Assembly (NCBI RefSeq): GCF_009914755.1 | Contig: NC_060935.1 | DNA length: 64,000 nucleotides | Reading direction: 5' to 3' (one strand) | Origin: the human T2T-CHM13v2.0 reference genome, Homo sapiens | Part shown: positions 35,985 through 43,920 of the stretch, piece by piece | Layout of the letters: each line of letters starts with the position of its first letter | Position numbering within the stretch: the stretch's first letter is position 1 | Made by a program: the position numbers and the translations under genes | Notes under the pieces: model-generated | What the model was told of the DNA's origin: nothing | What the model saw: only the letters and a program-made list of their open reading frames with translations | Databases searched by the model: none

Positions 35985-37139
35985 CCAAATGGTGCATGTG
36001 GAGGTGGTGGTCAAGGTCGCAGTGGCCACATGGGTATAGGAAGTGGCTGAGGTCCCAGAGGACACTCAGGTGAAGGACTCGGTTGAGATAGCAGAGGCCA
36101 GCCAAGTGGAGGAGGTCGCTGATGTACTAGAGGAGACCTGGGTGGAGAAGGTGGCTGAAGTCCCAAGGCCACGAGTGGAGACTATTGAAGTACCAGAGGA
36201 GACTCATGTGAAAGTGGTAGGGGAGGGGCCAGAGGCCACCCAGGTAGGGGAGGTGGCTGAGGCTCCACAGGCTACTAAGTGGAGGAGTAGGCTGAGGTCC
36301 CACAGGCCACACAGCAGAAGAAGGTTGATGAGGTCCCAGAGGACTAACAGCTGCAGGAGGTGGATGAGGTCTCAGAAGACAGGCAGCTGCAGGAGGTGGA
36401 TGAGGTCCCAGAGGACAGGCAGCTGCAGGAGGTGGATGAGGTCTCAGAGGACAAAGAGCTTCGGGAAGTGGTCGAGGTCCCAGAGGACAGAGAGTTGTAG
36501 GAGATAGTTGAGGTCCCAGAGGACACTCCAGTGGAGGAGGTGGTTCAGTTCCCAGAGGGCAGTCGAGTGGAGGAGGTTGATGAGGTCCCAGAGGGCACTT
36601 GAGTGCAGGAGGTGGTTGAGGTCCCAGAGGAAACTTTAATAAGAAGGTTGTTGAGGTTCCAGAGGACACTCAACTGGAGGAGGTGGTTGAGGTCCCAGAG
36701 GACACTCAACTGGAGGAGGTGGTTGAGGTCCCAGAGGACACTTGAGTGGAGGTGGTTGAGGTCCCAGAGGACACTCAAGTGCAGTAGGTAGTTGAAGTCC
36801 CAGAGGACACTAGAGTGGAGGAGATGATTGAAGTTCCAGGGGACACTCGAGTGGAGGACATTGCTGAGGTCCATTAGGAAACTTGAGTGGAGGAGGTATC
36901 TGAGTTCTCAGTAAAACTTCAGCTGGAGAAGGTGTTTCAGGTCCCAGAGGATGTTCGAGTGGAGGATGTATCAGAGGTCCCAGAAAACCTTCAGTTGCAG
37001 AGAGTGGTTGAGGTCCCAGAGGACACGGAGGTGGAGGGGGTGGCTGGCAGCCCATCAATGGTCCGGAAGGGCCAGCCATGAGGTAGGGCAAGTAGGGCGA
37101 TTCTGACAGAGAACGAGGCTCCTGTTCAGCCATGTTGAC
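35985..37139 (-). pseudogene. NPIP-like terminal exon with 36-bp Pro/Cys repeat
   Basis: Acceptor tttcttcctctgccttgcag|; VNMAEQEPRSLSESPYLPYLMAGPSGPLMGCQPPPP vs NPIP [36 protein letters not shown]; first stop at 36810-36812. Confidence 0.85.
36013..37046. repeat. Degenerate 36-bp tandem repeat (~28 units)
   Basis: gaggtcccagaggacact anchors spaced 36 bp apart, except one 30, one 33 and two 35. Confidence 0.95.
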
Positions 37140-39150
37140 CTGCAAGGCAGAGGAAGAAATGTTTTGAAACATACTAATATGAGGGACAAAACACCAAGAC
37201 CAACACAAGCTGCACCTCATGCTGCAGGTGATGGTCTCTTGCACCTTCCCCTTCTTCAGGTTCCTCAACAGCAGCATCAGTGCCATAAAGTCTCCCTTCC
37301 ACTGAGTCCTGCTAACAGCAGAGGAGTGAAAAAAACTCATGGGACAAACTGCTGTCCCCACACGTCACTGTGTCTGTCTGCAAATGTAGGAAGGATGGGG
37401 ACCTGTCCCAGGGAAGACAGAGTCATTCCGCAGTGATAAAGCAGCATGTTTCTGACACAGGGGTGTCTGTGCCTATCCTCATTCCTCCCTCACCACCATC
37501 ACCGGAGCATGCTCCTTGCATCAGATAAACAGAAAGAGAGGAATGGAAAGCCCATTGCTCACACATGAGTCACAGCTATTCTTAAGAGAATGTTCTCCAG
37601 GCCTTTCATGTCCTATCACTGATTCTCAGAACTCTGCAAGGTCAGTGTGACCACCCTGCTCCAAACCTAAGAAAATGGAGGCTCCCAAAGGAAGGAGAAA
37701 ATTCACCCAGCGTCACACAGCTTGCAAGAGGCAGAGAGGAAGCCGATTCCAGCTCTGCCTGCAGGACCCTCTCATCCCCCCTCCGCTTCCCTTCTTGACA
37801 AAGGGTCTTCTCCACTCTGGAGGTGCCACCTGTGGGCACAAAGGTCTCTGGGGAGATGTGGATTCCTGAAGACCTGCAGGGGAATTGGGAGAGGGTTTTC
37901 TCACAGGATGATCCTATGTAGAGAGGTGAGTTTGGCACAGCTATCATATTGCTTTTAACTCTCAGGCAATACCAAATTTTAAGTACACTATGACATAAAA
38001 AATAAGTTTGTCCATGGAAAAATGAGGGGGGATTTCTAAACAACAGAAGTTTTAAAAATGTGTTTGATTTCAAGTGTACAAGTCCCATCATGTGTGATCA
38101 GAGGACGCAGCAGCTGTCGAAACTACAGAGGCCACATGAGAATCAGCTTCACTGAGCATCACTGAAGGTCTTCATTGGGAACTGTCCTTGTAGGCAATGA
38201 GGGACGTTCACTCTTCACTACCTCACAGCCAGGGCACATTTTCTATTGCAAATATAGAACCTCTGACACCTAGAATATGAGATCAAGGGCACCACTGGGT
38301 GGTGGTGGGGGCGATTTTGCACAACGCAGCTACCAACAGAGCTGGGACTACAATGAATTATGGAATTGGCTTTTTCGAAGAGTATTCAAAATTGCACATA
38401 CTAATGTTGGATTAATGAGTTTTCAGTTTTTTTTTACTTCTGGGATTACAGCAGATATTCTAAAGGTTAATCACCTACCTTATGGCAGAAGAGAGATAAA
38501 CTCACGCAAAAAAGAACACCCTACATATTTTGGAAAGCGGACCCCAGCATATTGGAGTAAAATGGGTCAGTCAGGGTCCCCTGGGTCATGAGACCTACAG
38601 CAGTGGAGGTCGGTGGCATCTCCTCGTGTTACTTCTGCAAACAGAACAGTGAAAGCCCTTCAGCCCTCGGGCCCTGAGCATTCATGGCTTCTGCAGGTGC
38701 CACCAAAGATGACTAGCTGGGAATGGAGAAGCCTGGAAGCTCATAAGGACGATTTTGCTTTTGAAAAACAGAAAAGGCACCCCAGAACCCACAGAGCAGA
38801 GGCCAGGCCAGGAGAGGGCGCTGTCGGAAAAGACAAAAGTGTCCTGAAATAGAGTGAAAATGACTCCAGCATTTACCTTTTATCCATTTCTGACAAAGGG
38901 CACAAAGGTAAAAAAGATGTTTGACCGAAAGCTCCGTTGGCGTCCTGTTAGACAAACACCAATCTATCTAATTTCCGTAATGTAAATGGTAGATATCTTC
39001 ATAATTCTTACGCTAATAAATCACTTCCCTGATTTTTTTTTTTTGTAAAACCCAATATTTCTAATGAAGTCCAGAACCATGAATTGTTCTAAATAATTTC
39101 TTCTCACTTATGATTACAAGTATACCTCTACAGGAAGTGAGTATACTCAC

Positions 39151-39283
39151 ACCAAGGCTAGTTTTCCGGAAGAAAAATGCCAAGTGAACAAATTCCCAGC
39201 GAAACAACAATAATAACAAGCATCCAGGGAATTCCAGGAAAGTCAGGCCCAGGACGAAAATGGTCAGGCAGAACATCGATGAC
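39151..39283 (-). pseudogene. NPIP-like exon 2 (hydrophobic segment), damaged
   Basis: VIDVLPDHFRPGPDFPGIPWMLVIIVVSLGICSLGIFL vs NPIP [28 protein letters not shown]; acceptor is CGG not CAG; 133 nt (frameshift); donor GTGAGT. Confidence 0.85.
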
Positions 39284-39522
39284 CCGGAATAATAATAGTT
39301 GAAATAATGAGAAGGCTCAATGACATTGACAATATTTCAGTCACAAAGACTCATCCTTAGAAACCCTCAACCTCCTCCAAGAAGTAACCGCGCCCGTCAG
39401 ATATCACCAGCGAATTCCACTGCTTCAAGAAGGATTGGAAGTTGACAGTCTCATGTTTCTTGCGTGGCTGGTAGTGTTTTTAAGCATTGCAAATATGGGG
39501 TGTCTTTTTTCTTGGTCTAAAG

Positions 39523-43304: not shown

Positions 43305-43580
43305 CGTTTTGTATGAGACAAGGTCTCACTCTGTTGACAAGGCTGTAGTGCAGTGGGGCGATCCTGGCTCACTGCAACCCTCACCTCCTGGGGCCAAGCG
43401 ATCGTCCCACCTCAGCCTCTCAAGTAGCTGGGACTACAGGCGCTCGCTGCCACGTCTAATTGTTTGAATTTTTTGTAGAGATGGGGTTTTGCTATGATGC
43501 CCAGGCTGGTCTCAGATTCCTGGACTCAAGCGATCTGCCCACCTTGGGCCCCGAAAGTGCTGGGATTATGGGCGTGAGCT
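43305..43580 (-). mobile_element. AluJ
   Basis: Antisense J-type Alu. Confidence 0.88.
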
Positions 43581-43589
43581 GTGTTATTT

Positions 43590-43920
43590 CATGCCCCGTG
43601 ACAGCCCAACGAAAAGGAAGGAACCCCGCGGGTCCATAGTGTACTCACGTGGCTGGACTGATGGCTGGGAAACCCCAGCACGAGGAACCAAAAGAGCAGC
43701 CACCGCAGCCGCATGTCCTGGTCCTCTCAGGGCGCCCTGAGGTGGCCAGGGCACAGGTGGGGGTGGCTTAGGGCTGGGGGAGGGAAGGGGATAGGGATGG
43801 GGATGGGGATGGGATCGCAGTTGGGGAAGGGAAGGGAGAGGAGAGGAGGGGAGGGGACTGAAGGGGGGCTGTTGGGCACCTGGAGGAGGAGGAGGTGGAG
43901 GAGAAAGGGGTCTGGGAAAG
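43590..43920 (-). promoter_or_regulatory. Candidate promoter/5'UTR of the NPIP-like locus
   Basis: Locally CpG-richer; long G-run tract on + strand (pyrimidine tract on the sense strand) just upstream of the ATG. Confidence 0.4.
43649..43714 (-). CDS. NPIP-like exon 1 coding part, signal-peptide-like MRLRWLLFWFLVLGFPSHQSSH
   Basis: ATG 43714 (G at -3), 66 nt open, donor CAC|GTGAGT; resembles recalled NPIPB [22 protein letters not shown]. Expression is unknown. Confidence 0.7.

What the first reader, a model, noticed from the sequence alone, without database searches (positions are those of the whole stretch)
35985..43714. Hidden, deeply diverged NPIP/morpheus paralog outside chromosome 16
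Seen: three minus-strand exons in order, not recognisable as a gene from the ORF track. Exon 1 is MRLRWLLFWFLVLGFPSHQSSH|GTGAGT, exon 2 is VIDVLPDHFRPGPDFPGIPWMLVII..., and the last exon is AG|VNMAEQEPRSLSESPYLPYLMAGPSGPLMGCQPPPP. Established (recalled sequences): NPIP proteins have [46 protein letters not shown] and [36 protein letters not shown] at the same exon boundaries; NPIP is the rapidly evolving gene of the LCR16a core duplicon. Introns are retained, so this is a genomic duplicate. Divergence far exceeds that among chr16 copies. Inference: an early outgroup branch of the family lying next to a KRAB-ZNF gene. Novelty must be checked against LCR16a literature, which may already mention an 11p15 copy.
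Basis: partly seen in the sequence, partly recalled or inferred. Interest (0 to 1): 0.9.

Follow-up and report, generated by a model that had tools for sequence, protein, structure and literature searches.

The report
Old broken NPIP copy, chromosome 11
This stretch of human chromosome 11 holds an old, unannotated and broken duplicate of the fast-evolving NPIP (morpheus) gene of chromosome 16; it is one of several such relics, which show that the gene was already being copied to other chromosomes early in primate history.

Summary
On the minus strand lie NPIP exon 1 (43714-43649), exon 2 (39283-39151; Pfam NPIP, 49.4 bits, E 6e-13) and the last exon (37139-36810), followed by a 36-bp x 28 proline-rich repeat. 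Exons and introns are collinear with chr16 NPIP loci at 75-88% DNA identity (K2P 0.20-0.25, against 0.01-0.04 between two chr16 copies).

In human the NPIP reading frame is broken:
- The exon-2 acceptor is GG, not AG.
- One extra T shifts the exon-2 frame into a TAG.
- A clean 7.5-10 kb deletion (junction near 38881) removed all middle exons.
- The terminal repeat carries a stop and two frameshifts.

The locus is not alone. Similar relics lie at chr10q (two), chr7 (two), chrX and chr16p12.3. The chr10 pair is the nearest relative (K2P 0.13-0.17). The trees are star-like, so "outgroup branch" is unresolved.

A shared Alu and a closest match in a New World monkey date the copy to early primates. 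Orangutan (LOC129008213) and titi monkey have predicted proteins from this locus type; human RefSeq has none. No paper I could search mentions it.

Verdict: an old unprocessed NPIP pseudogene and a new member of a known family. Interest is moderate.

The parts
33481..44202 (-). Whole block homologous to NPIP-type loci elsewhere in the genome (gene on the minus strand)
   Evidence: blastn and own-genome DNA searches. chr16p12.3 and the LCR16a loci align up to 44202 and 44173. The chr10 pair and chrX align down to 33481 and 33482.
43649..43714 (-). Exon 1: ATG plus 22 codons (signal-peptide-like hydrophobic start), with an intact GT donor at 43648-43647
   Evidence: Aligned to exon 1 of two chr16 NPIP loci and the chr16p12.3 relic.
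43297..43585 (-). Alu in intron 1, at the same site with the same unique flanks in chr11, two LCR16a loci and the chr16p12.3 relic
   Evidence: Four-way alignment. It dates these duplications to after the Alu insertion.
41883..41906 (-). Alternative 5' exon 'a' (ATG plus 7 codons, then GT) used in the orangutan model LOC129008213
   Evidence: sequence. The ORF carries the same start peptide as P0122.
41591..41674 (-). Alternative exon 'b' (28 codons, AG acceptor and GT donor both present in human)
   Evidence: tblastn of P0122 residues 6-37 onto 41683-41588 at 84%. Splice signals read.
39151..39283 (-). Exon 2 (transmembrane-like segment). The acceptor dinucleotide at 39285-39284 is GG. One extra T lies in the run at 39173-39177. 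An in-frame TAG lies at 39160-39158. The donor GTGAGT is kept.
   Evidence: Pfam NPIP hit, sequence, and a seven-locus DNA alignment.
38880..38886 (-). Deletion junction. 7.5-10 kb holding the middle exons is missing relative to chr10, chr16 and chrX. A few bases of microhomology lie at the junction.
   Evidence: Left-side partners end at 38882-38892 and right-side partners start at 38880. Junction alignments.
37140..38879 (-). Retained 3' part of the last intron
   Evidence: Aligned to chr10 (79-87%), chrX (79%) and, from 38349 downwards, LCR16a (80.5%).
36810..37139 (-). Last exon: intact CAG acceptor, 109 codons, then a stop at 36812-36810
36038..37026 (-). Tandem array, 36 bp x 27.8 copies (a 12-residue proline-rich unit). 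The proline-rich reading passes one stop and two frameshifts.
   Evidence: Tandem Repeats Finder and three-frame translation.
35458..35760 (-). Alu in the 3' flank, shared with both chr10 copies. chrX keeps the empty site.

Best explanation
Window 33481-44202 (T2T chr11:3,381,481-3,392,202, minus strand) is an old unprocessed pseudogene of the NPIP/morpheus family.

A genomic segment carrying the ancestral NPIP gene was copied to 11p15.4 by duplicative transposition in an early primate. The segment included the promoter, introns and 3' flank. One end-joining deletion then removed 7.5-10 kb with all middle exons. In the human lineage the NPIP reading frame was broken further by three changes: loss of the exon-2 acceptor, a 1-bp insertion in exon 2, and a stop plus frameshifts in the terminal repeat.

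The human copy most likely makes no NPIP-like protein. It matters mainly as a fossil. It is one of at least seven dispersed relics (chr10 x2, chr7 x2, chrX, chr16p12.3, chr11) that are older than the ape LCR16a expansion.

Shown: homology, collinearity, the lesions, the other relics, the relative divergences, the shared Alus.
Inferred: duplicative transposition as the mechanism, the absolute age, and the lack of function.
For: Family membership:
- Pfam NPIP match on exon 2: 49.4 bits, cut-off 27.5.
- Exon-by-exon matches at the same boundaries to chr16 NPIP loci of the same genome.
- Collinear intron and promoter DNA at 75-88% identity.

Lesions:
- Acceptor CAG>CGG, and a 1-bp insertion leading to TAG, seen against six other loci.
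- Junction at about 38881. The missing stretch is 7,541 bp in chr10a, 8,191 bp in chr16A (against 534 bp in chr11) and 10,123 bp in chrX. In chr10 and chr16 that stretch holds the Pfam hits for profile positions 43-207.
- The repeat array is read in three frames, with one stop before the first shift and further stops after the last.

Other relics:
- 12 of 116 PF06409 matches lie off chr16 and chr18: chr10 6, chr7 2, chrX 2, chr1 1, chr11 1.
- DNA matches add chr7:56.84 Mb and chr16:20.54 Mb.

Age:
- K2P is 0.13-0.17 to chr10, 0.145-0.168 to chr16p12.3, 0.144 to chr7, 0.20-0.245 to LCR16a and 0.21-0.24 to chrX.
- The intron-1 Alu is shared with LCR16a and chr16p12.3.
- The 3' Alu is shared with chr10 only, and chrX has the empty site.
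- A titi-monkey predicted protein (P0125) maps best to this copy: exon 1 83%, last exon 73%, against 54% for chr10b.

Neutral drift:
- Amino-acid identity to titi (73-76%) is about what neutral drift predicts. This is my estimate, using recalled divergence figures.
Against: - Exon 1 (ATG and donor) and the last exon (acceptor and 109 codons) are intact. Both are phase 0, so an exon 1 to last exon transcript would carry an open frame of 131 codons in human.
- The titi model uses exactly that splice.
- The orangutan model LOC129008213 keeps a 196-residue ORF through exon 2 and the last exon.
- So the locus may be transcribed, and it is not demonstrably dead in every primate.
- I have no expression data for human.
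- Human-orangutan amino-acid identity (85-89%) is lower than my neutral estimate of about 93%. That could mean paralogy, CpG-driven change or selection.
- Orthology of the ape and monkey proteins rests on best match to human loci only, not on synteny.
Confidence: 0.82

Rival explanations
1. The locus is still a working, truncated gene. It would be transcribed from the exon-1 promoter or from alternative exons a/b, skip the crippled exon 2, and encode a short protein with a signal-like start and a proline-rich tail (131 or 145 codons), or act as a lncRNA.
For: - Intact ATG, donor and last-exon acceptor, with matching phases.
- A titi-monkey model splices exon 1 straight to the last exon.
- An orangutan RefSeq-style model joins exons a/b, exon 2 and the last exon into a 196-residue ORF carrying PF06409.
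- Loss of the exon-2 acceptor would itself favour exon skipping (inference).
Against: - No gene in the human RefSeq table for this window.
- The ORF ends at a different point in human, orangutan and titi.
- Amino-acid divergence is at or above my neutral expectation.
- The proline-rich reading continues past the human stop and through two frameshifts, so the ancestral frame has decayed.
- Predicted proteins in other species may be ab initio models.
Confidence: 0.13
2. The chr11 copy is the earliest-branching member (true outgroup) of all NPIP-type loci.
For: With the MIA3 exon region as root, chr11 falls outside a group of chr10, chr16p12.3 and LCR16a. Support is 83/87 on 338 columns, in one of five alignments.
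Against: - That support is below the tool's threshold, and the outgroup branch is long (flagged).
- The other four alignments are star-like.
- chr11 shares a derived Alu insertion with chr10 that chrX lacks.
- K2P puts chrX and LCR16a further from chr11 than chr10, chr7 and chr16p12.3.
Confidence: 0.12
3. It is a recent LCR16a segmental duplication, a retrocopy, or a chance or low-complexity resemblance.
For: None beyond the proline-rich repeat, which by itself could give spurious matches.
Against: - Identity to LCR16a is only 75-88%.
- Introns and promoter are retained.
- Exon 2 passes a curated Pfam threshold.
- Unique intron DNA aligns with E = 0.
Confidence: 0.01

Closest known systems
NPIPA/NPIPB genes of the LCR16a core duplicon (chr16; Johnson 2001 recalled; Cantsilieris 2020 PMC7419210, passages read)
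   Same: Same exon 1, exon 2 and last exon at the same boundaries. Homologous promoter, introns and an intron-1 Alu. A proline-rich C-terminal repeat.
   Different: - 75-88% identity, against more than 96% among the chr16 copies compared here.
- Exons 3-7 are deleted and the frame is broken.
- It has a 2.7 kb stretch of intron 1 (43259-40524) that human LCR16a lacks but chr10, chr7 and chr16p12.3 keep.
- The repeat unit is 12 residues (36 bp), unlike the longer LCR16a unit seen.
- It lies on chr11.
[quoted passage not shown]
   Same: An NPIP copy off chr16 that is regarded as inactive.
   Different: The chr18 copy scores like the chr16 copies in both the Pfam search (93.7 bits) and the DNA search (81% to the window, the same as chr16). 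It therefore belongs to LCR16a proper, whereas the chr11 copy is a much older branch.
chr10q NPIP-like pair (T2T chr10:80.366-80.396 and 81.104-81.125 Mb)
   Same: Nearest relatives. K2P 0.13-0.17, a shared 3' flank down to 33481, a shared 3' Alu and the same type of repeat.
   Different: The chr10 copies lack the promoter and exon 1 (alignment starts at 43063) but keep the middle exons. Their exon-2 acceptor is AT.
Uncharacterized protein LOC129008213 (Pongo pygmaeus, P0122) and hypothetical protein AAY473_035381 (Plecturocebus cupreus, P0125)
   Same: Both map best to this locus among human loci (84-89% and 73-83%). Both lack the middle exons.
   Different: Their frames are open where the human one is broken: no exon-2 frameshift, and a glutamate where human has the stop. 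They use different 5' exons. Orthology was not tested by synteny.
MIA3/TANGO1 transmembrane exon (chr1)
   Same: NPIP exon 2 and about 200 bp of upstream intron align to it (67% over 346 bp). PF06409 is precomputed on many TANGO1 proteins.
   Different: Only this exon region is detectably shared. K2P is 0.44-0.53. TANGO1 is a conserved ER-exit-site protein, not a member of the duplicon.

Membership tests
NPIP (Pfam PF06409) | Sequence match above the curated gathering score | tested here: met
   Exon 2 ORF scores 49.4 bits against a cut-off of 27.5, E 6.3e-13, profile positions 1-37 of 207. The own-genome search scores it at 48.1 bits.
NPIP (Pfam PF06409) | Presence of the central coiled-coil part (profile positions about 38-207) | tested here: not met
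   0 of 122 minus-strand ORFs match these positions. The DNA that holds them in chr10, chr16 and chrX is deleted at about 38881.
NPIP gene family (genomic) | Same exon-intron layout, with homologous introns | tested here: met
   Collinear blastn blocks to two chr16 loci from the promoter to the last exon. Exon boundaries coincide.
NPIP gene family (functional member) | Intact full-length open reading frame and splice sites | tested here: not met
   Acceptor AG>GG, a +1 frameshift leading to TAG, a middle-exon deletion, and a stop plus two frameshifts in the repeat.
LCR16a core duplicon / segmental duplication | High-identity copy (the operational threshold for segmental duplications is about 90%; recalled) | tested here: not met
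   75-88% identity per block, K2P 0.20-0.245.
Processed (retro) pseudogene | Loss of introns | tested here: not met
   Introns 1 and the last intron are retained and homologous to those of the parent-type loci.
Expressed gene | Transcript or peptide evidence in human | not testable with these tools
   No expression data are available here. The RefSeq table given with the finding lists nothing between 19724 and 46500.

The most novel reading that the evidence does not exclude
The 11p15.4 copy is one of at least seven fossils of an earlier wave of NPIP/LCR16a duplicative transposition to other chromosomes. I found no description of this wave in print. The fossils lie at 10q, chr7, chrX, 16p12.3 and 11p15.4. 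The wave came after the first Alu insertions and before the New World/Old World monkey split. If so, the core duplicon's mobility predates every expansion described so far, and the "single ancestral copy" of monkeys holds only at high identity. A bolder extension is that the chr11 copy survives in some primates as a transcribed, truncated gene for a protein with a signal-like start and a proline-rich tail.
Probability: 0.45. Interest if true: 0.55.

Novelty: new member of a known kind. Interest (0 to 1): 0.42.

Why it matters
NPIP/LCR16a is the textbook "core duplicon" that seeds the segmental duplications behind the chromosome 16p rearrangement disorders. It is also one of the fastest-evolving ape gene families.

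The passages I read describe one ancestral copy at 16p13.1 in monkeys, followed by independent lineage-specific bursts. A 2019 review says no paralogues outside primates could be found.

Decayed copies on five chromosomes, datable by shared Alus and by a monkey relative, push the element's dispersal back to early primates. They also offer old outgroup sequences for rooting NPIP trees and for reconstructing the pre-ape gene structure. This includes the 2.7 kb of intron 1, with two exons, that human LCR16a has lost.

In practice the locus is missing from human RefSeq. It should be annotated as an unprocessed pseudogene so that it is not rediscovered as a "hidden gene".

Tried and rejected
- A degenerate back-translated pattern for exon 1 found nothing. 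The codons differ, so the ORF list was used instead.
- Translating the whole region in one go failed because of stop codons. Single ORFs were sent instead.
- Rfam: 0 matches in 33000-47000 at gathering scores.
- Base composition and CpG: the 5' region has CpG o/e 0.29, like LCR16a at 0.26-0.36, so it says nothing about promoter decay.
- PIPPI microprotein (PMC12596725): I tried to find its sORF in the retained intron. The paper's text gives no sequence, so this was dropped.
- A 149-codon ORF at 38091-37642 looked conserved with LCR16a. Local DNA identity there is simply higher (0.88-0.89), so there is no sign of coding constraint.
- Plus-strand ORFs in 36040-36900 are the antisense reading of the tandem repeat.
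- Trees from five segments could not place chr11 with support. Rows dropped before the trees:
  - Segment C1: chrX (only 70 bp).
  - Segment C: chr1 and chr7 (short).
  - 3'-flank segment: chr16A, chr16B, chr1, chr16odd and chr7 (they matched only the Alu).
- Literature. Three searches combined NPIP, LCR16a or morpheus with chromosome 11, 11p15, 10q22, ZNF195 or MIA3. I read passages of PMC7419210, PMC12790995, PMC9132208, PMC6920530, PMC12596725 and bioRxiv 10.1101/116087. None mentions a human 11p15 or 10q copy. Their supplementary files were not opened and could list low-identity copies.
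Full report
**1. Observation**

- The first is in ORF 43589-43726. The DNA shows ATG at 43714-43712, 22 codons, and then GTGAGT, with the donor GT at 43648-43647.
- The second is in ORF 39158-39316.
- The third is in ORF 36810-37364. A CAG acceptor puts the exon start at 37139.
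- A 36-bp tandem array of 27.8 copies spans 36038-37026. On the minus strand it reads as a 12-residue proline-rich unit.

**2. Is it NPIP?**

I did not rely on recalled sequences.
- Pfam scores the exon-2 ORF at 49.4 bits against PF06409 (NPIP), whose cut-off is 27.5. E is 6.3e-13, over profile positions 1-37 of 207.
- Of 122 minus-strand ORFs between 36813 and 43941, only the 2 overlapping exon 2 hit NPIP.
- The window's genome is searchable. PF06409 gives 116 matches there. Most lie on chr16 and 4 on chr18. The other 12 are chr10 6, chr7 2, chrX 2, chr1 1 and chr11 1, the last being this locus at 48.1 bits.
- I fetched an NPIPA-type locus (chr16:14.744-14.764 Mb) and a second chr16 locus (21.34-21.36 Mb).
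- tblastn of the window's ORFs against them gives exon 1 at 62% identity (E 2e-14), exon 2 at 64-66% (E 2e-11 and 4e-11) and the last exon at E 9e-21 and 2e-21. Each lies at the same exon boundary.
- blastn shows collinear non-coding homology:
  - 44173-43259 (promoter, exon 1, start of intron 1) at 75-80%.
  - 40524-38883 (rest of intron 1, exon 2, start of intron 2) at 79-88%.
  - 38349-37028 (last intron and last exon) at 80.5%.

The family assignment stands.

**3. State of the gene**

- A seven-locus alignment of exon 2 shows that chr16 NPIP, the chr16p12.3 relic and MIA3 all have AG at the acceptor. The window has GG (39285-39284).
- The window also has one extra T (run at 39173-39177). 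It shifts the frame into a TAG (39160-39158) nine bases before the conserved GTGAGT donor.
- Alignments from the 5' side (chr16, chr7, chrX, chr16p12.3) all stop at 38882-38892. Those from the 3' side (chr10 pair, chrX) all start at 38880.
- The partners have 7,541 bp (chr10a), 8,191 bp (chr16A, against 534 bp in chr11) or 10,123 bp (chrX) between these points.
- In chr10 and chr16 that interval holds the Pfam hits for profile positions 43-207. One deletion therefore removed all middle exons.
- The junction shows only a few bases of microhomology, as expected for end joining.
- In the last exon the frame runs 109 codons to a stop at 36812-36810. The proline-rich reading then continues in the same frame, shifts to a second and then a third frame, and meets further stops.

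The human NPIP frame is thus broken at four levels.

**4. It is one of several relics**

DNA searches of the genome with 36000-46500 and 20000-36000, together with local blastn, map the following:
- chr10:80.37-80.39 and 81.10-81.125 Mb align to window 43063-41618, 39986-38975 and 38880-33481. They lack the promoter and exon 1, keep the middle exons, and have AT at the exon-2 acceptor.
- chr16:20.538-20.552 Mb aligns to window 44202-41502 and 41085-38892 in opposite orientations. Its start codon is ATA.
- chr7:65.59 and 56.84 Mb align to window 42436-40094 and 39058-38886. Exon 2 is missing there.
- chrX:50.366-50.377 Mb aligns to window 39214-38882 and 38880-37003, plus pieces from 36029 to 35751 and a block from 35457 to 33482.

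The homologous block in the window is therefore about 33481-44202. Of the old copies, only the chr11 one keeps both ends.

The 2.7 kb of intron 1 at 43259-40524 is shared with chr10, chr7 and chr16p12.3 but absent from the human LCR16a loci. It gave no other genome-wide matches. It is therefore more likely ancestral sequence lost from LCR16a than a transposon (inference).

**5. Relationships and age**

K2P distances:
- chr11 to chr10: 0.13-0.17.
- chr11 to chr16p12.3: 0.145-0.168.
- chr11 to chr7: 0.144.
- chr11 to LCR16a: 0.20-0.245.
- chr11 to chrX: 0.21-0.24.
- The two chr16 loci to each other: 0.011-0.039.
- The two chr10 copies to each other: 0.003-0.035.

IQ-TREE trees on five segments are star-like. 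None places chr11 with support. Rooted on the MIA3 exon region (338 columns), chr11 is sister to the rest at 83/87. That is below the tool's threshold, and the outgroup branch is long.

Two rare genomic changes help.
- An Alu in intron 1 (43585-43297) sits at the same site, with the same unique flanks, in chr11, both LCR16a loci and the chr16p12.3 relic. These copies therefore separated after that insertion.
- An Alu at 35760-35458 is shared by chr11 and both chr10 copies. chrX keeps the empty site and has a different Alu about 100 bp away. So chr11 and chr10 are closer to each other than either is to chrX.

Alus are primate-specific (recalled), which gives an upper bound. For a lower bound, a protein search with the last exon found 4 of 6 candidates. 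One is a titi-monkey hypothetical protein, P0125. It consists of an exon-1 peptide spliced straight to the last exon. Among human loci it maps best to chr11: 83% and 73%, against 54% for chr10b and 48% for chrX.

If P0125 is the orthologue, the copy predates the New World/Old World monkey split. Per-lineage divergence of 0.07-0.12 fits an early-primate date under recalled substitution rates. That date is an inference.

**6. Other primates annotate it**

- A search with the exon-2 ORF returned 1 protein of 30 candidates. It is "uncharacterized protein LOC129008213" of Pongo pygmaeus (P0122), 196 residues, carrying PF06409.
- It maps to the window as residues 6-37 at 41683-41588 (84%), residues 37-73 at exon 2 (89%) and residues 81-196 at the last exon (85%).
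- It has no exon-2 frameshift, and a glutamate where human has the stop.
- Its two 5' exons have intact splice signals in human too: 41906-41883 and 41674-41591.
- Human exon 1 and the last exon are both phase 0. An exon-2-skipping transcript would therefore carry an open frame of 131 codons, or 145 from exons a/b.

This is the basis of the rival reading. Against that reading:
- The ORF ends differently in all three species.
- Amino-acid identity is about neutral for titi and below my neutral estimate for orangutan.
- The ancestral proline-rich frame has decayed.
- Human RefSeq has no model here.

I have no expression data.

**7. Known or new?**

Three literature searches and passages from six papers gave no mention of a human 11p15 or 10q NPIP copy.
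- PMC7419210 describes one ancestral copy at 16p13.1 in macaque and an "ancient" chr18 copy. It calls the propensity to duplicate "a far more ancient property", on the evidence of marmoset.
- PMC6920530 states that no paralogues outside primates could be identified.
- bioRxiv 10.1101/116087 notes 16-27% similarity to the N-terminal region of MIA3.

Supplementary files were not opened, and GENCODE could not be consulted. "Not in print" therefore means not in these searches. I class the locus as a new member of a known kind, an unannotated unprocessed NPIP pseudogene. Its added value is that, with its siblings, it documents an older layer of NPIP dispersal.

**8. Side result**

The chr1 PF06409 hit is the transmembrane exon of MIA3/TANGO1. 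It is 96% identical to a human TANGO1 isoform, with 231 of 237 candidates below E 0.001 and the 120 best listed. Many of the listed TANGO1 proteins carry PF06409. The exon and about 200 bp of upstream intron align to NPIP exon 2 at 67% over 346 bp. This suggests that NPIP exon 2 derives from, or shares an origin with, MIA3.

**Verdict**

Interest is 0.42.

Noticed in passing
window 20104-30904: About 10.8 kb just beyond the NPIP-type block is homologous to chr10:3,396,016-3,406,296 at 72-80% in several collinear pieces. It is a second, unrelated old paralogy lying next to the relic, reminiscent of the mosaic flanks of LCR16a blocks.
   Followed up: no
L035:9288-9428 (chr1:221,879,288-221,879,428): The chr1 PF06409 hit is the MIA3/TANGO1 transmembrane exon. 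It and its upstream intron align to NPIP exon 2 (67% over 346 bp). Many TANGO1 proteins carry PF06409 in the database. This points to MIA3 as the source or sister of NPIP exon 2.
   Followed up: partly
L048+L033+L034 (chr10:80.366-80.396 Mb) and L041+L042 (chr10:81.104-81.124 Mb): Two near-identical (K2P 0.003-0.035), oppositely oriented NPIP-like copies. They lack the promoter and exon 1 but have open exon-2 and middle-exon frames and a long proline-rich repeat. Their exon-2 acceptor is AT.
   Followed up: partly
L046+L047 (chr16:20.538-20.552 Mb): An old NPIP relic on chr16p12.3 itself. It is split into two oppositely oriented pieces, has ATA for the start codon and a TGA in exon 2. It is about as far from LCR16a (K2P 0.19-0.23) as the chr11 copy is.
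   Followed up: partly
window 36040-36907, plus strand: Long plus-strand open frames (for example 36040-36507, 155 codons, acidic repeats) are simply the antisense reading of the 36-bp tandem array. They are not evidence of a gene.
   Followed up: yes
window 37642-38091, minus strand: A 149-codon ATG ORF in the retained last intron. Its last 62 codons are also open in both LCR16a loci, as a 63-codon ORF with the same end. Local DNA identity is 0.88-0.89, above the 0.80 average, which is enough to explain it.
   Followed up: partly
window 44221-44335: A partial Alu abuts the 5' end of the homology block (about 44202). Alus at duplication edges are a known feature of LCR16a blocks, according to the abstract of bioRxiv 10.1101/2025.07.09.663898 in the listing.
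   Followed up: no
P0124, P0126 (database proteins from unnamed contigs): Two predicted proteins join chr10-type and chr11-type last-exon segments within one sequence. They are probably chimeric short-read assemblies of these paralogous relics. I did not pursue them.
   Followed up: no
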